64,000 nt of DNA, taken from positions 32,001 through 96,000 of the IMG/VR virus record IMGVR_UViG_3300045974_000806; one strand, given 5' to 3'. This DNA is from a virus. The translations under genes were made by a program, and so were the position numbers. The notes beneath the pieces are model-generated. The model saw nothing but the letters and a program-made list of their open reading frames with translations. It searched no databases and had not been told where the DNA came from. The number at the start of each line of letters is the position of its first letter. Position 1 is the first letter of the stretch. Positions 56,797-64,000 of the stretch are shown here, one piece after another.

Positions 56797-56837
56797 TGCT
56801 TTTTGTATTGCCTTCCGGAACCGGAGGAACTAAGTGT
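56797..56837 (+). promoter_or_regulatory. class-1 promoter, copy D
   Basis: TGCTTTTTGTA-TTGCCT-17 nt starting TCCGGAA-TAAGTG. Confidence 0.7.
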
Positions 56838-56890
56838 TGGGCTCCACCAAGGACGCGCCTCAAAACAGGGCGCCCACCAAGGAGAACCCA

Positions 56891-58888
56891 ATGATCATCA
56901 CCGCGAAGTGGAACAGCGCCTGCCCCGTTTGCACCAAGCTCATCTCCGCCGGCTCCGCCTGCGACTGGCAGAAGGGCAAGAAGGCCACCCACGTGGCGTG
57001 CGCCTCCGCCGAGGCCAAGGAAACCCTGGAAGCCTCACGCGCCAGCGCCCCGGCCGCCAACGCCACCATCCCGGTCCCTGAAGCCCCCGCCGGCCTGAAC
57101 TACCTCCCCTTCCAGGCCGCGGGCATCCAGTTCGCGCTGGCCCGGTTCGCCGCCGGCAAGAACGGCGTGTTGGTGGCTGACGAGATGGGCCTGGGCAAGA
57201 CCATCCAGGCCCTGGGCGTCTGCAACGGGCTGGCGCCGGCCGCGGAGAAGCCCCTCAATGTGCTGGTGGTGTGCCCCGCGTCCCTGCGCCTGAACTGGGC
57301 ACGTGAGGCGTCCAAGTGGCTGGTGGGCCGCTGGGAGGTGACCACGTTCCTGAAGACGGACAAGGTGCTCACCGCGCGCTCAGACGTCGCCATCCCGTAC
57401 GCGCAGCACTCCCTGACCGTGGTGAATTACGACATCCTGAGCAAGGTGCCCTGTGTCCACGGGACGGAGTGGGACGTCCTGATTGTGGACGAAAGCCACT
57501 ACGCGAAGAACGGGAAGGCCAAGCGGACCCAGTTCCTGGCGGCCATCAAGTCCACCCGCCGCGTGTTCCTGACGGGCACGCCCATCTGCAACCGCCCCTC
57601 TGAACTGGTGTCCCTGCTCACCCAGATTGAGCCCAGCGAGTGGGGCGCCTTTGGGGAACAGAAGGCGTTCTTCAAGTTCGCCTACCGGTTCTGCAACCCC
57701 ACCAAGGTGTGGACCGGCTTCAAGTACGTCACCGACTTCACCGGCGCATCCAACCTTGATGAACTGCAAATCAAGCTGCGCACCGGCGTCATGGTCCGCC
57801 GCATGAAGGCGGACGTGCTGAAGGAACTGCCCCCCAAGACCCGGCAGGTGGTGGTGCTTCCGGAGAACGGCGCCAGCGCCGCGGTGAAGGCGGAGCGCGC
57901 CGCGTTTGGTGAGGACATGGCGGAGCGCCTGACCGCGGTGGCGGATGACGCGGACGCCTACGCGTCCCTAGTGGCGGAACTGACCTCCCCCAAGGCCCCG
58001 TCCTTTGAGGCCATCTCCCTGGCCCGGCAGGCCCTGGCCATTGAGAAGGTGCCCTACGTGGTGGACCACGTGCGGCAGGCCCTGGAAGACAACGACGGCC
58101 ACAAGGTGGTGGTGATGGCGCATCACAAGGCGGTGGTGGACGCCCTGATGGCCGGCCTGGGCGAGTTCGGCGCGGTCAAGATCGACGGGTCCATGGGCGC
58201 GGAGGACCGCGAGGCCAGCGTGACCAAGTTCCAGACCGACGCGGCCACCCGCGTGTTCGTGGGCAGCATCATGGCGGCCGGCGTGGGCATCACGCTCACC
58301 GCGGCCCACCACGTGGTGTTCGCGGAGTTGGACTGGGTTCCGGGCAACGTGTCCCAGGCAGAGGACCGCTGCCACCGCATTGGCCAGCATGACAACGTGC
58401 TGGTGCAGCACCTTGTGTTTGACGGCTCCCTGGACGCGCTGCTGGTGCAGACCATCCTGGGCAAGCAGGCCGTCATCTCCGCCGGCCTGGACACCCAGCA
58501 GGCCGTGGTGGATGCCCCCGCGGCCATGGTGGCCCGCAGCGCCGCCAAGCCGGCCCCCAAGACGGCGGAGGAAGTGGCCGCGGGCAGCGAGTTCACCGCG
58601 GAAGTCCGCGAGGCCACCATGCGCGGCCTCAAGTCCCTGTCCGCGGTGTGTGACGGCGCCCACGACGAGGACGGGATGGGCTTCAACGGCCGTGACAGCG
58701 GCTTTGGCAAGTCCCTGGCCGCCCGCGCGTTCCTGACGGACAGCATGACCCGCGCGGCCATCAAGATGCTGCGCACCTACCGCAACACCCAGTTGTCCGC
58801 GGACGTCACCTCCGTCCTGGCCCCGTTCTGGCCCACCAAGGCCAAGGCGCCCAAGGCCGCCAAGGCGGACGCGCCCGCCGCGGAGTGA
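56891..58888 (+). CDS. SNF2-family helicase/translocase with N-terminal Zn finger
   Basis: ADEMGLGKT, CPASL, VDESH, LTGTP..N, RRMKADVL, QAEDRCHRIGQ; CPVC...HVAC; SD AAGGAG. Confidence 0.92.
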   Translation: MIITAKWNSACPVCTKLISAGSACDWQKGKKATHVACASAEAKETLEASRASAPAANATIPVPEAPAGLNYLPFQAAGIQFALARFAAGKNGVLVADEMGLGKTIQALGVCNGLAPAAEKPLNVLVVCPASLRLNWAREASKWLVGRWEVTTFLKTDKVLTARSDVAIPYAQHSLTVVNYDILSKVPCVHGTEWDVLIVDESHYAKNGKAKRTQFLAAIKSTRRVFLTGTPICNRPSELVSLLTQIEPSEWGAFGEQKAFFKFAYRFCNPTKVWTGFKYVTDFTGASNLDELQIKLRTGVMVRRMKADVLKELPPKTRQVVVLPENGASAAVKAERAAFGEDMAERLTAVADDADAYASLVAELTSPKAPSFEAISLARQALAIEKVPYVVDHVRQALEDNDGHKVVVMAHHKAVVDALMAGLGEFGAVKIDGSMGAEDREASVTKFQTDAATRVFVGSIMAAGVGITLTAAHHVVFAELDWVPGNVSQAEDRCHRIGQHDNVLVQHLVFDGSLDALLVQTILGKQAVISAGLDTQQAVVDAPAAMVARSAAKPAPKTAEEVAAGSEFTAEVREATMRGLKSLSAVCDGAHDEDGMGFNGRDSGFGKSLAARAFLTDSMTRAAIKMLRTYRNTQLSADVTSVLAPFWPTKAKAPKAAKADAPAAE

Positions 58889-58963: not shown

Positions 58964-61900
58964 ATGCCCTTGCTCACCGCGCGCCTCATCCAAGAGATCA
59001 AAGAGATCATCCGGAAGCACCACACGGCGTTCGTGGCCAACGCGTTTGGCAAGGACGTGCTCCCCCCGGAAGCGGTGGAGAAGCTGCGCGCGGCCGGCCT
59101 CATCAGCCAGACACAGGGCAGCAGCCTGGACGACGCCTACCTCTACGGGCAGGTGATGGCCCAGGTGGAGAAGCCGGAGGTGGCCGAGTGGTCCGCCGCC
59201 CAGGTCCGGTCCTACGCGGCCCAGAACCCCGTCCCCCTCACCCAGGTGGAGCGTGAAGCGGTGAAGACGGCCCGGCTCACCGGCGCGGAGTATTGCCAGG
59301 GCCTGGGCAACGTCATTGAGAAGCAGACCGGCCAGTTGCTGATCGAGGCGGACCACGCGCTGCGGGAAGACCTGCAGGGGAAGATTGCGGACGCCACTGC
59401 GGTGAACATTGCCGCGCGCGGCACGGTGAAGGCGCTCAAGACGGACCTGGGCTGGGCCACGCAGGACTGGGCCAGGAACTTGGACCGCATTGCCATCACG
59501 GAGAAGCAGAACGCGATGCAGCAGGGTGTGGCGGATGGCATCCGGAAGCGCGTGGGGGAGGAAGCCCGCGTGTCCATCCGGTGCATGCCGGACGCCTGTG
59601 GCGCGTGCCGGGCGTTCAGCATTGGCCCGGACGGCGCCCCGCGCATCTACCGCCTGAGCCAGTTGGGGCCTCCGGGCTCCAACGTCCACCGCAAGCAGAA
59701 CGCGTGGGTGGCGTGCGTGGGCGCGGTGCATCCGCACTGCCATCCCGCAGGGACCGTGGTTCAGACGCGGCGGGGGCGCATCCCGATTGAGACGGTGGTG
59801 CCGGGGGACATGGTGCTGACGCACCGGGGCCGGTGGATGCCTGTGAGCCACACGTGGGCGTCCCGGTATTCCGGAATCATGTTGCGCGTGAGGACGGAAA
59901 GCGCGGTGGTTGACGTGACTCCGGAGCATCCGTTGTTCCGCTCAAACGGAACCACCGCTTCCGCGCAAAACCTCCAACAGGGTGACAACCTTTTGGACCT
60001 CCGCTTGGACGGAGAACCCGCGCCGTCGGTCCAAGGTGATGCGGACCACGGACCATCCGCGCCGCTTGAGCGCGCGCATCTTGCGCGCATCCTGTTTGGC
60101 CTTTCTCCCGCTGGCGTGCCAGTTGCCGCCGTCAACTTCCACGGCGAGCTTTTCCTGTGGGAAGGCAATGTCCACCAGAAACGTGCCCACAATGAAGCCT
60201 GGGAGCCCAGCCATTCCGACGGCGCAAAGCGCCTCATGGATGAGGCGTTCACCGGGACTTTTGAGTTGACCGCTTTGGGCTTGAAGCACCTTGAGGATGT
60301 GCCCACGGGAGTTCCGTTTGCCACGTCGGGCTGCATGCGCAGCGTTGGCGCGGGCACTACGTTCCTCCGGGCTGGACCGGGCGTTGCGGAGGCGTTGGGC
60401 TTCCCCCATCCCGCGGACGACGTGTCCAGCACGCTCCAAGCGGAGCACCACGGTCCCACGGGCCACCCCCAGCCGCCGGGCAATCTCCTGTACCGGGAGC
60501 AGTTGGTTGAGGTGCAAGTCTACAAGGACCGCTTCATCAATTTCGCGCCGGTACACCATGAGCCCTCCGTGGCTTTCAGTGCCCCGACGGTGCGGCAAGC
60601 TGCGTCCATTGTCAATGTCAGTTCAAACCAGTTTGATGGGTTGGTGTTCAACCTGACCGTTCCGGAAGATCACAGTTACACGGCCAACGGGCTGGCCTCG
60701 CACAACTGCCAGTGCCAGTTGGTCCGCTTGCCCGTGGGCTGGGGATACAACGCGGAAGGGGAGATGGAGCCCGGCGGCCGGTTCGGCGTGGAGGTTCCGG
60801 AAGACGAGGAAGAGGCGGAGAAGGCGTTCCGGATGGAAGTGGAGCACCGGGAGGCCATGCAGAAGGGCGGCACCCTGGACTTCCAGGGCATGCCCATCCG
60901 GATCGAACAGGACGCGGGGGAGGTGCGCCACTGGCGGGACCGTCACGGCGAGTCCGGCAGCACCACCATGCAACACGCCTACGGGGAGATTGTGGGCACC
61001 AAGGGCGCCGACGGTGACCCGGTGGACGTGTTCCTGGGCATGAACCCCAACGCGTCCCACGTCTACGTTGTCCACCAGCGGAAGAAGCGTGCGGACGGGA
61101 CGTTTGGTGGCTTTGACGAGGACAAGGCGTTCCTGGGCTTCTCTTCTCCGGAAGAGGCCAAGGCCGCCTACCTGTTGCACTACGACAACCCGGAGTTCTT
61201 TGGCGGGATGTCCGCGGTGGGCCTGGAAGACTTCCGCGCGCGCGTAGGCGCCCCCGGCCCCCTGGTGGGGGAACCGGTCCACACTCCGGAACTGACCTTC
61301 ACCGTGGCGCTTCCGGAATCCGCGGCGGACATGGCCAAGGCCGCCGTCCGCCCGCCGGCCGTTCCGGACATGACGTTCACCCTGGGCAAGGCGTTTGGCC
61401 AAGCCGCGGCCGGTCACAAGTACATCCGGCGCACGTACACCAAGGGCCATTGGGTCTATGAGTACGCGGAGCAGCACGGCGGGCACGTGAGTAGCCACGC
61501 CACGGACCCGGACAAGGTGATGCTCAAAGTGGAGCCCCACCACGCCAACGCCCTGGCGGCGCTGGCGGAGATGCACGGCATCCATCCGGAACTGGTGCAT
61601 GGGAGCACGCACGTCATGCTGCCCCTCACCCACGCCCAGGCTGATTCCATCCACCACGGTGAGACGGGCACGCCCATCCCGGCCGCCATGCTGCCCACGC
61701 CGGCCCTGGCCACCGTGCTGCCCTTCCCCACGCCCGCTCAGGTGGCCCCCGTGGCTCCGGCACCCCTGGCCCCGACCGTGGCGCCTGCGCCGGCTCAGGT
61801 GGCTCCGCGGGCACGCCCGGCCCCGGCCCAGCAGATGGGCCTCTTTGACACCATGCCCGCGGCCCAGGCCGTCACGCAGTCCCCGGTGACCCATCCGGCC

Positions 61901-64000
61901 CCCACGCCCCTGGCGGTGGCCGCCATTCCGGAGAAGAAGTGGGGCGTGGTGGGTTCCACCGCGTTCCGGAATTGGTTCGGGGACTGGACGGTGGGCCAAG
62001 GGTCCAAGGTGGTGAACGCGGACAACACGCCGGCGGAGCAGCACGGAGCCAAGCCGGCAACCATGTTCCACGGCACCGCGGTGGGCGGGTTCACGGAGTT
62101 CCGGAAGGACAAGGACAAGGGCACCAACATCTTTGGGCACGGCTTCTACTTCACGGCGGACAAGGGCATTGCCAAGTCCTACACGGAGAAGGATGCCAAT
62201 GAGGCCAAGGCCGCCGCCACGGGTTTCTTGGACAAGGAAGGCGAGCCCATCACGCACCTGACCAAGAAGCAGGCCGCGGAACTGGCGGAGAAGGCCGCGG
62301 GCAACGCCAACCCCAACTGGGACTACAACATCCTGCACGCGGTGAAGGCCGCCGCGGAGCCGGACGGCCGCGTCAATGTGGCCACCCTGTTGAAGGAGTT
62401 CTGGAACCCCACCGGAGTGGAGACGGACGGCGGCTACAAGCAGCCCAAGCGTGAAGTGATGCCCATGGGCGGCGTGCGCTTGGTGGGCGGCATCCAGGGC
62501 CTCTTTGGGAAGAACCGCGCCGGTGAATACCACGTCAAGCCGGTCATTCCGGAGTCCCAGGTCTTTGAGGTGTACCTCAACATCCGGAACCCGGTGGACA
62601 TGGACAAGGCCATGACCCGCGCGGACTTTGCGGAGTACGCGGCGTTCACGCACCGGCGTGCGTTGGAGCGTCTGAACAAGGAGTTGGAGCAGGACAAGGC
62701 CCGCGTGGAGACGAAGCGCGGGGAGATGGCGTCCGCCAAGGTGAAGCTGGCCGCGCTGGCCCCCACGCCCCCGCAGCCTACGGAGATGCGGGTTCCGGAA
62801 GGCAAGCGGAAGGCCGTCCCCATGCCGGTGGAGGAGTGGACCGGTGAGATGCGCCGGGCGATTGATGACCCCACGCATGGACAGCACGCAATGGCCCAGG
62901 CGTTTGCTTCCTGGGAGCACGCAAAGAACGAACGGGAGTTCCTGTCCCAGGCCGCGGCCGGGGAGGGCTATGACGGGTTCAACAACGCGGTGGCGCATTC
63001 CGTCCGCACCCAGGCCCGCATTGATGCCGTCCGGCGTGAGGTTCCCGGGGAGTTCCTGCACGGCGTGCAGATGGATGACGTGGCCCCGCGTGAGCACCGC
63101 CTCTCAGACCAAAGTGAGAGCGCCGCCAGCTATGATGACTTTGTGGCGGTGAAGCGCAGCATCAAGGGGGACCGCACCAAGCCGGAGATGGTCACCTACG
63201 GCGGCACGTCCCGCGCCCGGGCCGGCATCCTCTACGTGGGGGAGCAGAAGCCGGGCGCCATCACCTGGGGTGAGATGCATTGGTTGATGTCCAACGGGCA
63301 TGAGGCGTCCAGCCCGCGCGCGGACTTCGACGAGTGGGCGCGCGCCACGGGAAAGGATGGCGTTCACCACACCGGCGGATGGAACATTGGCACCCACGCG
63401 CATGACGTGTGGATTGCGTTTGAACCCAACCAGATCAAGTCCTCCACGGCCAACACCACGTTTGACCCGGCCTCCAATGACATGGAGAAGGCCGGCCCTT
63501 ACGTTGGCCCGCACGGCGGGCTTTGGGCGGACCCCAAGCACACCATCCATTGGTCCGCGGTCCCGCACTGGGCGCAGAAGATGGCCGCCAGCCACGCCGC
63601 GGAGATCAAGCCACACCCCACGGACCCGCACAGCCTGGAAGTGGCCGTGCCGGTGAAGCACGCTCCGGAACTGGGCTACCAGCAGGGCCAGCACGCGGTG
63701 CCCCACAACGTGAAGCTGTCCGCGGACCTCAAGCAGGCCACGTTGCAGGTCCCCGCCCTCCCGGTGGCGCCGGACGTTCAGGCGCTTGGACGTCCAGACG
63801 TCCAGACGCCCGCCCCGGCTCCCACGCCCCCGCCTGCCCCTGTGGCACCGCCCCCGCCGCCCGCGCCCCTGGCCGGCGTGGCGCCCACGGGCAAGCCCAA
63901 GCGCAAGGGCATCACCGTGGCCCAGTTGGATATGTTTGCGCCCGCTCCGGCTGCGACGGCTCCCGTCGCACCGGTGGTGCAGGCGCCGGCAACCCCTGCT
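58964..64000 (+). CDS. MuF-like head protein with intein, then InPase-like and ADP-ribosyltransferase-like domains (runs off window)
   Basis: Translated by hand: no stop from ATG 58964 to the window end. RIAITE, CGAC, HPH|CQC; YGEIVGTKGADGDPVDVF...FDEDKAFLGF; FRNWFGDW, FHGT, GFYFT, YLNIRNP, FEPNQIKS. Confidence 0.88.
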   Translation, partial: MPLLTARLIQEIKEIIRKHHTAFVANAFGKDVLPPEAVEKLRAAGLISQTQGSSLDDAYLYGQVMAQVEKPEVAEWSAAQVRSYAAQNPVPLTQVEREAVKTARLTGAEYCQGLGNVIEKQTGQLLIEADHALREDLQGKIADATAVNIAARGTVKALKTDLGWATQDWARNLDRIAITEKQNAMQQGVADGIRKRVGEEARVSIRCMPDACGACRAFSIGPDGAPRIYRLSQLGPPGSNVHRKQNAWVACVGAVHPHCHPAGTVVQTRRGRIPIETVVPGDMVLTHRGRWMPVSHTWASRYSGIMLRVRTESAVVDVTPEHPLFRSNGTTASAQNLQQGDNLLDLRLDGEPAPSVQGDADHGPSAPLERAHLARILFGLSPAGVPVAAVNFHGELFLWEGNVHQKRAHNEAWEPSHSDGAKRLMDEAFTGTFELTALGLKHLEDVPTGVPFATSGCMRSVGAGTTFLRAGPGVAEALGFPHPADDVSSTLQAEHHGPTGHPQPPGNLLYREQLVEVQVYKDRFINFAPVHHEPSVAFSAPTVRQAASIVNVSSNQFDGLVFNLTVPEDHSYTANGLASHNCQCQLVRLPVGWGYNAEGEMEPGGRFGVEVPEDEEEAEKAFRMEVEHREAMQKGGTLDFQGMPIRIEQDAGEVRHWRDRHGESGSTTMQHAYGEIVGTKGADGDPVDVFLGMNPNASHVYVVHQRKKRADGTFGGFDEDKAFLGFSSPEEAKAAYLLHYDNPEFFGGMSAVGLEDFRARVGAPGPLVGEPVHTPELTFTVALPESAADMAKAAVRPPAVPDMTFTLGKAFGQAAAGHKYIRRTYTKGHWVYEYAEQHGGHVSSHATDPDKVMLKVEPHHANALAALAEMHGIHPELVHGSTHVMLPLTHAQADSIHHGETGTPIPAAMLPTPALATVLPFPTPAQVAPVAPAPLAPTVAPAPAQVAPRARPAPAQQMGLFDTMPAAQAVTQSPVTHPAPTPLAVAAIPEKKWGVVGSTAFRNWFGDWTVGQGSKVVNADNTPAEQHGAKPATMFHGTAVGGFTEFRKDKDKGTNIFGHGFYFTADKGIAKSYTEKDANEAKAAATGFLDKEGEPITHLTKKQAAELAEKAAGNANPNWDYNILHAVKAAAEPDGRVNVATLLKEFWNPTGVETDGGYKQPKREVMPMGGVRLVGGIQGLFGKNRAGEYHVKPVIPESQVFEVYLNIRNPVDMDKAMTRADFAEYAAFTHRRALERLNKELEQDKARVETKRGEMASAKVKLAALAPTPPQPTEMRVPEGKRKAVPMPVEEWTGEMRRAIDDPTHGQHAMAQAFASWEHAKNEREFLSQAAAGEGYDGFNNAVAHSVRTQARIDAVRREVPGEFLHGVQMDDVAPREHRLSDQSESAASYDDFVAVKRSIKGDRTKPEMVTYGGTSRARAGILYVGEQKPGAITWGEMHWLMSNGHEASSPRADFDEWARATGKDGVHHTGGWNIGTHAHDVWIAFEPNQIKSSTANTTFDPASNDMEKAGPYVGPHGGLWADPKHTIHWSAVPHWAQKMAASHAAEIKPHPTDPHSLEVAVPVKHAPELGYQQGQHAVPHNVKLSADLKQATLQVPALPVAPDVQALGRPDVQTPAPAPTPPPAPVAPPPPPAPLAGVAPTGKPKRKGITVAQLDMFAPAPAATAPVAPVVQAPATPA
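59942..60559 (-). CDS. HTH + Vsr/DUF559 (EDxHD-like) endonuclease encoded antisense inside the intein
   Basis: EIARRLGVARGTV (HTH); KSPGE, VDIAFPQEKLAVEVDGGNWH, QDARK..LKRRGWSVVRI; GGAGG upstream of ATG 60559. Confidence 0.85.
   Translation of the reverse strand: MVYRREIDEAVLVDLHLNQLLPVQEIARRLGVARGTVVLRLERAGHVVRGMGEAQRLRNARSSPEERSARANAAHAARRGKRNSRGHILKVLQAQSGQLKSPGERLIHEALCAVGMAGLPGFIVGTFLVDIAFPQEKLAVEVDGGNWHASGRKAKQDARKMRALKRRGWSVVRITLDRRRGFSVQAEVQKVVTLLEVLRGSGGSV
60587..60615 (-). promoter_or_regulatory. candidate promoter for the antisense endonuclease
   Basis: Minus strand TTGACA (60615-60610), 17 nt, CACCGT (60592-60587), about 28 nt before the ATG. Confidence 0.55.

What the first reader, a model, noticed from the sequence alone, without database searches (positions are those of the whole stretch)
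59738..60706. Intein whose endonuclease is encoded on the opposite strand, in codon register
Seen: the MuF-like gene holds a complete stop-free 323-aa intein (Cys1, TPEH, block F, HN/C). Its middle region shows no recognisable in-frame LAGLIDADG or HNH domain. The minus strand at 60559-59942 encodes about 205 aa with an HTH and a Vsr/DUF559 nuclease (SPGE, VDIAF, EVDGGNWH, QD, GWSVVRI) on the same codon boundaries. Codon bias flips here: + frame codons often end in A/T and start with G/C, as expected if the minus strand is the selected gene. The last 20 or so nuclease codons overlap the intein's ASAQNLQQGDNLL element, so both strands appear constrained. This is the only credible minus-strand gene in the window. 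Established: Vsr-like EDxHD enzymes are a homing endonuclease family, and intein nucleases are normally in-frame. Inference: a homing element that expresses its nuclease independently of the late host gene, with the intein splicing out the antisense read-through. I cannot confirm it is undescribed; alternative-frame intein nucleases need a literature check.
Basis: partly seen in the sequence, partly recalled or inferred. Interest (0 to 1): 0.95.

Follow-up and report, generated by a model that had tools for sequence, protein, structure and literature searches.

The report
Intein with backwards-encoded homing endonuclease
A self-splicing protein insert (intein) in a phage head-assembly gene carries its DNA-cutting "homing" enzyme as a separate gene on the opposite DNA strand, codon against codon; this is real and under selection, but a 2025 preprint already described the layout, so it is a new example and not a new kind.

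Summary
The + strand gene (58964 to beyond 64000) contains a 323-aa intein (59738-60706). It has Cys1, TPEH, a terminal HN and a +1 Cys. Only its two ends fold, as a Hint domain. The middle 190 residues are predicted to be disordered.

The same DNA read on the minus strand, in exact codon register, gives a 205-aa protein (60559-59945). It models at pLDDT 93.5 as a helix-turn-helix plus a Vsr-type nuclease. Its best structural match is the homing endonuclease I-Bth0305I, and the E/D/H/D catalytic signature is complete.

All 84 viral loci (window included) and 17 of 19 bacterial loci have the same arrangement: antisense, in register, inside an intein at one MuF site. Substitutions fall on the wobble position of the minus frame in the middle of the intein, and of the plus frame at its ends (dN/dS 0.19 against 1.14). 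Close relatives lack the intein precisely.

Expression, cleavage and splicing were not tested.

This is not new as a kind. Gosselin, Arsenault and Gogarten (bioRxiv 10.1101/2025.01.02.630785) describe "VSR -1 ORF" inteins in MuF-like minor capsid genes of actinobacteriophages, including a relative found here. This scan has also noted the layout before on other DNA. The additions here are its breadth beyond actinophages, the selection tests, and a subtype with the full EDxHD signature.

The parts
58964..59737 (+). N-extein: N-terminal module of a polyvalent head-morphogenesis protein, a divergent MuF-like domain that ends ...VHPH
   Evidence: ORF. No Pfam or PHROG hit. Profile-profile match of the IA(R/I)TE...CxxC core to MuF-type N-exteins: probability 89%, E 2e-6. 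An intein-less ortholog, L104, reads VHPN-CQC without interruption.
59738..60706 (+). Intein, 323 aa, class 1 signature (Cys1, TPEH, terminal HN, +1 Cys at 60707)
   Evidence: Pfam Hint_2 and NCBIfam intein N/C-terminal models. C1, T61, H64 and N323 are invariant in 64 homologs. The model matches solved inteins and Hint domains only.
59738..60007 (+). N-terminal Hint lobe (intein residues 1-90)
   Evidence: AF2 pLDDT 95-98. Host-frame dN/dS 0.35, against 0.76 in the antisense frame.
60008..60577 (+). Read-through 'shadow' linker (intein residues 91-280): the + strand translation of the antisense nuclease gene, predicted disordered
   Evidence: pLDDT 36-49 with no secondary structure. Host-frame dN/dS 1.14. 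The apparent + frame motif VP..A.(D/N)FHG is the codon complement of the nuclease motif AVEV.GG.WH.
60578..60706 (+). C-terminal Hint lobe (residues 281-323, blocks F and G, ...ASHN)
   Evidence: pLDDT 96-98. Host-frame dN/dS 0.26.
59945..60559 (-). Antisense homing-endonuclease gene, 205 aa, in codon register with the intein (stop codon at 59942-59944)
   Evidence: DUF559 and MTES_1575 hits. AF2 pLDDT 93.5, pTM 0.77. Nuclease-frame dN/dS 0.19, and differences per site at codon positions 1/2/3 of 0.028/0.015/0.091 in close pairs.
60564..60568 (-). Shine-Dalgarno-like GGAGG, 4 nt upstream of ATG 60559 (7 nt upstream of the alternative GTG 60556)
   Evidence: Read from the sequence and scored. 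Its function was not tested.
60431..60535 (-). Helix-turn-helix DNA-binding module (nuclease residues 9-43)
   Evidence: Three helices at 9-18, 23-30 and 34-43 in the model. Weak Pfam HTH hits. Resolvase and transposase HTH chains match in the PDB profile search.
59966..60262 (-). Vsr/EDxHD-type nuclease domain (residues about 100-198) with E104, D130, E141, D143, H148 and D157
   Evidence: Profile hits to 3hrl (E 2.7e-9) and to 3r3p, I-Bth0305I (E 1.5e-6). Foldseek top hit is 3r3p, followed by Vsr 1cw0 and 1vsr. Residue conservation.
59945..60007 (.). Doubly constrained zone of about 21 codons: the end of the N-terminal Hint lobe on + (ASAQNLQQGDNLL...) and the last helix and tail of the nuclease on -
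   Evidence: Both models are confident here: intein residues 70-90 and nuclease helix 184-198.
60707..64000 (+). C-extein, starting CQC. It carries InPase (about 60863-61240) and ART-PolyVal (about 62051-62209) domains and runs off the window.
   Evidence: Pfam InPase E 1.8e-33 and ART-PolyVal E 2.7e-15.

Best explanation
This is a mobile intein inserted at the conserved H-P-(N/H) | C-x-C site of a MuF-like module in a 110-kb phage's polyvalent head protein.

Only the two ends of the intein (about 90 and 43 residues) are selected on the + strand, and they form the Hint splicing domain. The DNA between them is a separate gene on the minus strand, read codon against codon. It encodes a 205-aa helix-turn-helix plus Vsr/EDxHD-type nuclease.

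The host ribosome reads through the antisense of that gene as a roughly 190-residue disordered linker. Protein splicing removes this linker together with the intein. The read-through stays open because the nuclease gene never uses TTA, CTA or TCA, the three codons whose complements are stop codons.

The nuclease is translated from its own start (ATG 60559 with an upstream GGAGG). By inference, it cuts intein-less MuF alleles at the HPx-CxC junction, so that repair copies the whole element in.

Shown here: the gene, its fold, its catalytic signature, purifying selection on it, co-evolution with the Hint ends, and presence/absence among close relatives.

Inferred: transcription and translation of the minus strand, the cleavage target, and splicing competence.
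For: **Family.** DUF559 scores above its Pfam cutoff and MTES_1575 gives E 8e-9. A profile of 62 homologs hits 3hrl (E 2.7e-9) and I-Bth0305I 3r3p (E 1.5e-6).

**Fold.**
- The minus-frame protein models at pLDDT 93.5. Its top Foldseek hit is 3r3p, followed by Vsr.
- The + frame middle of the intein has pLDDT 36-49. Its ends score 95-98 and match solved inteins.

**Catalytic residues.** E104, D130, E141, H148 and D157 are present. D130, H148 and D157 align with D196, H213 and D222 of I-Bth0305I, with the same nine-residue spacing from His to Asp.

**Conservation of the layout.**
- All 84 viral loci (window included) have the nuclease in register and antisense inside a 277-1704-aa ORF; 80 of them have cleanly delimited inteins at the same site.
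- 17 of 19 bacterial and MAG loci, labelled with about ten different major lineages, show the same arrangement.

**Selection.**
- In the core, differences per site in close pairs are 0.028/0.015/0.091 at minus-frame codon positions 1/2/3. At the Hint ends the pattern is reversed.
- NG86 dN/dS in the core is 0.19 in the minus frame and 1.14 in the plus frame.
- About 262 TTA/CTA/TCA codons would be expected over 63 nuclease genes under extein codon usage. None is observed.

**One unit.** Pairwise identity of the Hint ends tracks that of the nuclease (rho 0.66) but not that of the extein (rho 0.05).

**Mobility.**
- Of 671 phage records matching the Snoke MuF protein (mostly Guernseyvirinae), 75 carry the intein. 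Many relatives with 74-93% extein identity lack exactly its 816 nt.
- An intein-less ortholog of the window's own gene reads VHPN-CQC.

**Translation signals.** In 41 of 69 loci the start codon is the complement of the block-F His codon, 20 codons from the intein's end, and nearly all of these have GGAGG or GAGG 8 nt upstream.
Against: - There is no direct evidence that the minus strand is transcribed or translated.
- No sigma-70-like promoter was found upstream of the nuclease, either in the window or in two enterobacterial phage relatives.
- Cleavage specificity and splicing are untested.
- In the window itself, the open antisense frame and the composition are uninformative. The case rests on homologs.
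- The close-pair dN/dS uses only 12 non-independent pairs, mostly from one phage group.
- The Jersey-type copies have lost the putative general-base His. So not every member need be an active nuclease.
Confidence: 0.85

Rival explanations
1. The nuclease is a free-standing selfish or competition nuclease that merely lodges inside the intein as a safe harbour. It does not mobilise the intein. For example, it might cut rival phage genomes elsewhere, or serve the phage in some other way.
For: - The preprint's authors propose that such inteins arose when a free-standing HEN invaded an intein.
- Free-standing DUF559 genes exist, such as L100 and L101.
- The Jersey-type copies lack the catalytic His yet remain under purifying selection. 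This hints at a role other than classic double-strand cleavage.
Against: - Every strong relative of this nuclease sits in the same intein, at the same host site and in the same register.
- The nuclease and the Hint ends co-vary, while the extein does not.
- The whole element, not the nuclease alone, is what is present or absent between close relatives.
Confidence: 0.1
2. The minus ORF is a non-expressed shadow or a decaying relic. Its apparent conservation comes from constraints on the + strand.
For: - Long antisense ORFs are common in this 68% GC window.
- The chance that this frame is open here is 0.64.
Against: - The wobble pattern and dN/dS point to the minus frame in the middle of the intein.
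- The minus-frame protein folds at pLDDT 93.5, while the + frame does not fold there.
- In members with 38-52% GC, the chance that the frame is open ranges from about 0.03 down to 1e-6, and is below 1e-3 for most.
- Catalytic residues are invariant or nearly so.
Confidence: 0.03
3. The + frame middle is a genuine in-frame intein domain (a novel endonuclease or linker domain), and the minus-strand similarity to nucleases is secondary.
For: The + frame shows a recurring motif, VP..A.(D/N)FHGD, across 64 inteins.
Against: - That motif is the exact codon complement of the nuclease motif AVEV.GG.WH.
- The region has pLDDT 36-49 and no secondary structure.
- Host-frame dN/dS is 1.14.
- No Pfam model matches the + frame there.
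- Structure search returns Hint-domain proteins and large inteins aligned over about 120 columns or fewer.
Confidence: 0.02

Closest known systems
'VSR -1 ORF' non-canonical inteins in MuF-like minor capsid proteins of actinobacteriophages (Gosselin, Arsenault and Gogarten, bioRxiv 10.1101/2025.01.02.630785)
   Same: - A contiguous intein in a MuF-like head gene, with a Vsr-like nuclease ORF on the antisense strand in the -1 frame.
- The + frame middle has no recognisable structure.
- An HHpred link to 3R3P and a structural link to Vsr.
- Their table lists Gordonia phage Malisha gene 5.
   Different: - The window is a 110-kb, 68% GC metagenomic phage. Its polyvalent protein resembles those of proteobacterial phages.
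- Its nuclease belongs to a shorter subtype: about 200 aa in most members, with one HTH in the window's model. In 8 of the 10 members it ends about 66-75 codons into the intein instead of spanning the N-terminal Hint lobe, and it starts 36-50 codons from the intein's end in most members instead of inside block F.
- This subtype keeps the full E-D-E-D-H-D signature.
- The preprint calls these architectures rare and reports no codon-level selection test. Here they appear in Guernseyvirinae, in many bacterial phyla, and in 1737 protein clusters at E <= 1e-30.
Inteins with an antisense LAGLIDADG endonuclease (Synechocystis DnaX, Chloroflexus SpoVR-like; Gorbalenya 1998 and Gogarten 2002, as cited in the preprint)
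   Same: The endonuclease is encoded on the strand opposite to the intein and its host gene.
   Different: The nuclease is of a different fold (LAGLIDADG, not Vsr/EDxHD), and the host genes differ. The 1998 paper itself is not held in the library, so this comparison rests on the preprint's citation.
'Fractured genes': split inteins with a free-standing Vsr-like endonuclease gene between the halves (Dassa et al. 2009, PMC2677866)
   Same: The same nuclease lineage sits at the position where an intein's endonuclease domain would be, and it is expressed as its own ORF.
   Different: There the host gene and the intein are broken into two genes joined by trans-splicing. Here the intein is contiguous, because the nuclease gene is read through on its antisense strand. 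The word 'antisense' does not occur in that paper, and its uses of 'opposite' do not concern strands.
I-Bth0305I, prototype of the EDxHD homing endonucleases (Taylor et al. 2011, PMC3239194; PDB 3R3P)
   Same: - It is the best structural match to the window's nuclease.
- The catalytic Asp, His and Asp align.
- An N-terminal DNA-binding region precedes a C-terminal Vsr-like domain.
   Different: I-Bth0305I is encoded on the sense strand inside a group I intron of a phage recA gene, and it uses NUMOD-type modules. Sequence identity is only about 22%.
Canonical bifunctional inteins such as PI-SceI, or the TliVMA intein
   Same: A Hint splicing domain with an endonuclease module inserted between the N- and C-terminal lobes. 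The presumed life cycle is homing.
   Different: In canonical inteins the nuclease is an in-frame domain of the same polypeptide. Here the two functions are two proteins made from the two strands.

Membership tests
Intein (Hint-domain protein-splicing element, class 1) | N-terminal Cys/Ser, block B TxxH, C-terminal His-Asn, and a +1 Cys/Ser/Thr | tested here: met
   Cys1, TPEH...SHN and Cys+1 read from the sequence. C1, T61, H64 and N323 are invariant in 64 homologs.
Intein (Hint-domain protein-splicing element, class 1) | Match to curated intein/Hint models, and a Hint fold | tested here: met
   Pfam Hint_2 31.5 bits (cutoff 28.4). NCBIfam intein_Cterm 27.4 (cutoff 15.6). Intein_splicing 31.6 is below its cutoff of 35.8. 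The ends of the model match gp41-1, DnaX, NpuDnaB and RecA inteins, with target TM-scores up to 0.80.
Intein (Hint-domain protein-splicing element, class 1) | Precise in-frame insertion that is absent from homologous alleles | tested here: met
   Ortholog L104 reads VHPN-CQC without interruption. Guernseyvirinae alleles differ by exactly 816 nt.
Intein (Hint-domain protein-splicing element, class 1) | Protein splicing activity | not testable with these tools
   Needs expression of the precursor.
EDxHD / Vsr-like homing endonucleases (I-Bth0305I family) | Vsr-like nuclease fold | tested here: met
   The pLDDT 93.5 model has 3r3p as its top Foldseek hit (probability 1.0, target TM-score 0.64), followed by 1cw0, 1vsr and 3hrl.
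EDxHD / Vsr-like homing endonucleases (I-Bth0305I family) | Conserved catalytic Glu, Asp, His and Asp (D196, H213 and D222 in I-Bth0305I) | tested here: met
   The window has E104, D130, H148 and D157. D130 and H148 align with the mutated D196A and H213A positions of 3r3p, and D157 lies 9 residues after the His, as D222 does. Only the 10-member window subtype keeps D157.
EDxHD / Vsr-like homing endonucleases (I-Bth0305I family) | Site-specific cleavage of the element-free allele | not testable with these tools
   Needs an in vitro cleavage assay on the HPx-CxC junction.
Pfam DUF559 (PF04480) / MTES_1575 (PF18741) | Score above the curated gathering threshold | tested here: met
   DUF559 scores 28.6 against 20.6, so it is met. 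MTES_1575 scores 35.9 against 38.2, just below.
'VSR -1 ORF' antisense-endonuclease inteins (bioRxiv 10.1101/2025.01.02.630785) | A contiguous intein with a Vsr-like ORF on the antisense strand in the -1 (codon-aligned) frame | tested here: met
   The register is exact. A listed member, Malisha gene 5, is a detectable homolog with the same layout.
'VSR -1 ORF' antisense-endonuclease inteins (bioRxiv 10.1101/2025.01.02.630785) | The host gene is a MuF-like minor capsid / head-morphogenesis protein | tested here: inconclusive
   30 of 60 related N-exteins hit Phage_Mu_F, but the window's does not, and it has no PHROG hit either. Profile-profile comparison to MuF-type N-exteins gives 89% probability over 47 columns. 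The insertion motif H-P-(N/H)|C-x-C is shared.

The most novel reading that the evidence does not exclude
The antisense, codon-aligned layout is not a rare accident of actinophages. It may be an old, tightly integrated two-strand design and the main intein type of phage MuF genes across bacterial phyla. In most members the nuclease's ribosome-binding site and start codon are written into the complement of splicing block F. The window represents a second subtype, with a shorter nuclease and the full EDxHD active site. If the minus-strand gene has its own timing, for example early expression opposite a late head gene, the layout would decouple homing from host-gene expression. Converging transcription could then also modulate the head gene.
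Probability: 0.3. Interest if true: 0.55.

Novelty: new member of a known kind. Interest (0 to 1): 0.35.

Why it matters
**Annotation.** About 600 bases here encode two proteins on opposite strands, and the second gene goes unannotated. In all three GenBank phage records inspected, no full-length nuclease gene is annotated; one record annotates only a partial 133-aa ORF on that strand. A single-sequence search of the 5.8-billion-cluster protein set (clusters at 90% identity) found no relative at all.

**Homing endonucleases in inteins.** The case shows how a homing endonuclease can live in an intein without being part of its polypeptide. This bears on the 'splicing first, nuclease invades later' view of intein origins.

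**Tools.** The nucleases form a large, diverse set of compact enzymes with a shared, known target region, which may interest enzyme engineers.

**What is new.** The kind itself was published as a preprint in 2025. The value here is confirmation by independent tests, a wider host range, and a distinct subtype.

Tried and rejected
**Searches that found nothing or failed**
- blastn of 59000-61500 against the phage collection: no match.
- Single-sequence word-index search with the window nuclease: no hit at E <= 1e-5.
- Promoter scans of the window and of two enterobacterial phage relatives: no promoter-like site on the nuclease strand upstream of its start.
So I could not measure how often this intein lacks the nuclease or carries a decayed copy.
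- One script call gave no answer and was rerun.

The genomic context of the 1737 called protein clusters was therefore not checked. The eight clusters sampled come from short contigs, mostly 1-3 kb and at most 4.5 kb.
- Gorbalenya 1998 is not held in the library.

**Literature searches**
- Searches on 'opposite strand', 'antisense' and 'MuF' found nothing relevant.
- The preprint surfaced only after earlier notes of this scan named it.

**Idea rejected**
- The conserved + frame motif in the intein middle is not an in-frame domain. It is the codon complement of the nuclease active-site motif.
Full report
**What is in the window**

The + strand carries one long ORF from 58964 that runs off the window. 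At 59738-60706 it holds a stop-free insert of 323 codons. The insert begins with Cys, has TPEH in block B, and ends in His-Asn followed by Cys. Pfam Hint_2 and the NCBIfam intein C-terminal model score above their cutoffs.

The minus strand has an ORF at 59942..60598 whose codons share the + strand's boundaries, since 59942-58964 is a multiple of 3. It matches DUF559 above threshold, matches MTES_1575 at E 8e-9, and has weak helix-turn-helix hits at its N-terminus. The sequence shows GGAGG at 60564-60568, four bases upstream of ATG 60559.

**Which strand codes in the middle of the intein**

I built two models, each from an alignment of more than 60 homologs.
- The minus-frame protein folds with mean pLDDT 93.5 and pTM 0.77. 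It consists of three short helices, a helical linker, and an alpha/beta domain.
- In the + frame intein, residues 1-90 and 281-323 have pLDDT 95-98. Residues 91-280 have pLDDT 36-49 and no secondary structure.

Foldseek places the + frame model among solved inteins and Hint domains. [quoted passage not shown] A sequence profile of the nuclease family also finds 3hrl (E 2.7e-9) and 3r3p (E 1.5e-6).

The window protein has E104, D130, E141, H148 and D157. D130 and H148 align with the positions mutated in the 3r3p construct (D196A, H213A). D157 lies nine residues after the His, as the catalytic D222 does in I-Bth0305I.

**Is it more than chance?**

In this window alone, an open antisense frame means little. 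The phage is 68% GC and almost never uses TTA, CTA or TCA, so 205 codons stay open on the other strand with probability 0.64. The decisive evidence comes from relatives.

**Relatives**

A tblastn of the nuclease against GenBank phages found 67 records, mostly Jersey-type Salmonella phages and Kagunavirus coliphages, plus Gordonia phage Malisha. In the three I opened, the match lies antisense inside the head-morphogenesis gene next to the portal gene.

A scan of viral contigs that used only nuclease motifs returned 80 loci.
- With the window and those three phages, all 84 have the nuclease in register inside a 277-1704-aa ORF on the other strand. The other two antisense frames are short.
- Every host ORF with that region present carries an intein at one site: N-extein ...H-P-(N/H), then Cys, and at the end (H/S/K)-N followed by C-x-C. 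Eighty have clean boundaries and lengths of 265-370 aa.

A scan of bacterial genomes gave the same layout in 17 of 19 loci. These come from contigs labelled Cyanobacteria, Chloroflexota, Saccharibacteria, Firmicutes, Gemmatimonadota, Armatimonadota, Actinomycetota, Alpha- and Gammaproteobacteria and others. The two exceptions are weak hits to free-standing DUF559 genes.

**Selection**

Column identity is high in the + frame at both ends of the intein and high in the minus frame in the middle.
- In pairs 2-15% diverged, differences per site in the nuclease core are 0.028, 0.015 and 0.091 at minus-frame positions 1, 2 and 3. That is the wobble pattern of the minus frame.
- In both Hint ends, the most variable position is the + frame's third.
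- Nei-Gojobori estimates on 12 close pairs give dN/dS of 0.19 (minus frame) against 1.14 (plus frame) in the core, and 0.26-0.35 in the plus frame at the ends.
- If the nuclease genes used their phages' extein codon usage, about 262 TTA/CTA/TCA codons would be expected over 63 unique genes. None occurs, although the loci range from 38 to 77% GC.

So the minus-strand gene is kept functional and is also kept free of the three codons that would stop the host protein.

**One element, and mobile**

Pairwise identity of the Hint ends correlates with that of the nuclease (rho 0.66) but not with that of the flanking extein (rho 0.05).

671 phage records match the Snoke MuF protein, mostly Guernseyvirinae.
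- 75 cover the intein-containing query.
- Many relatives with 74-93% identical exteins cover only the exteins. They span 1035-1041 nt instead of about 1851-1857, which is the length of the intein.

An intein-less ortholog of the window's own gene (47% identity) reads VHPN-CQC straight through.

**Anatomy of expression signals**

In 41 of 69 unique loci, the best start codon lies exactly 20 codons from the intein's C-terminal Asn. It is the complement of the His codon of block F (HVYNL), and nearly all of these starts have GGAGG or GAGG eight bases upstream, the complement of the Asn-Leu codons.

The window belongs to a different subtype of ten sequences.
- The nuclease is shorter.
- In most members it starts 36-50 codons from the intein's end.
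- In 8 of the 10 members it stops about 66-75 codons after Cys1, rather than running across the N-terminal Hint lobe.
- It keeps the full E-D-E-D-H-D signature.

In the window, only about 21 codons (59945-60007) are confidently structured on both strands.

No promoter-like site was found, and no RNA data could be obtained. Expression therefore remains inferred.

**The host gene**

The window is part of a 110,271-base viral record judged complete. The C-extein carries InPase and ART-PolyVal domains, so the host is a polyvalent protein.

The N-extein has no Pfam or PHROG match, although half of the related N-exteins hit Phage_Mu_F. A profile-profile comparison links its IAITE...CxxC core to the MuF-type set at 89% probability. 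'MuF-like' is thus reasonable, but it is not established by a curated model.

**Comparison with what is known**

My own literature searches on strand and antisense terms found nothing relevant. Earlier notes of this scan on other genomes named a preprint, which I then located and read: Gosselin, Arsenault and Gogarten, bioRxiv 10.1101/2025.01.02.630785.
- It reports inteins with Vsr-like endonucleases on the antisense strand in MuF-like minor capsid genes of actinobacteriophages.
- It notes the unstructured in-frame region, the HHpred link to 3R3P, and signs of horizontal transfer.
- Its Supplemental Table 1 lists Malisha gene 5 as 'VSR -1 ORF', the same locus I had recovered.
- It also cites antisense LAGLIDADG inteins known since 1998.

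The kind is therefore already described. This scan has also met it repeatedly on other DNA.

- The layout is found beyond actinophages, and it is not rare: 1737 protein clusters match the nuclease profile at E <= 1e-30.
- Codon-level evidence that the minus frame is the selected one.
- The start signals built into block F.
- The window's subtype with the full EDxHD signature.

**Verdict**

Independent expression and homing remain untested. This is a new member of a known kind, of moderate interest.

Noticed in passing
L033, L037, L039 (IMG/VR) and L001/L002 (Snoke, vB_StyS-sam), nuclease ORFs: The Jersey/Kagunavirus copies of the nuclease have Ala in place of the putative general-base His (signature E-D-E-F-A-Y). 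Close pairs, which include this group, nevertheless show the wobble pattern of purifying selection, and the intein is patchily distributed among close relatives. These copies may be an altered or non-cleaving variant.
   Followed up: partly
L001 2420-3229 and L002 2420-3229 (+ strand of the loci): In the enterobacterial phages the antisense ORF spans almost the whole intein. Its stop codon is the complement of the intein's second codon (Leu), directly next to Cys1. Whether the C-terminal 70-100 residues that overlap the N-terminal Hint lobe belong to the folded nuclease was not examined.
   Followed up: no
window 59800-60850: GC content dips to 0.61-0.65 across the intein, against 0.68-0.72 in the flanking extein DNA. 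This is consistent with an element acquired from a lower-GC source.
   Followed up: partly
window 56834-58888 (+) and 60707-64000 (+): Directly upstream of the intein-bearing gene lies a 684-aa ORF whose translation has helicase-like motifs (such as DESH). The host gene itself is a polyvalent protein of more than 1679 aa, with InPase and ART-PolyVal domains after the MuF-like module.
   Followed up: partly
L100 3501-3842 and L101 3501-3734: The only two loci from the bacterial genome scan that lack the antisense-in-intein layout are weak matches (39-44 bits) in short ORFs of about 200 aa. They are probably ordinary free-standing DUF559 genes.
   Followed up: no
H83 (Vibrio phage 1.113.A) and H100 (Vibrio phage 1.266.O): Vibrio phages have MuF homologs with an insert at the same place. 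One record is annotated 'hint domain protein' and matches only the C-terminal Hint lobe and the C-extein. Other intein types may occupy this site.
   Followed up: no
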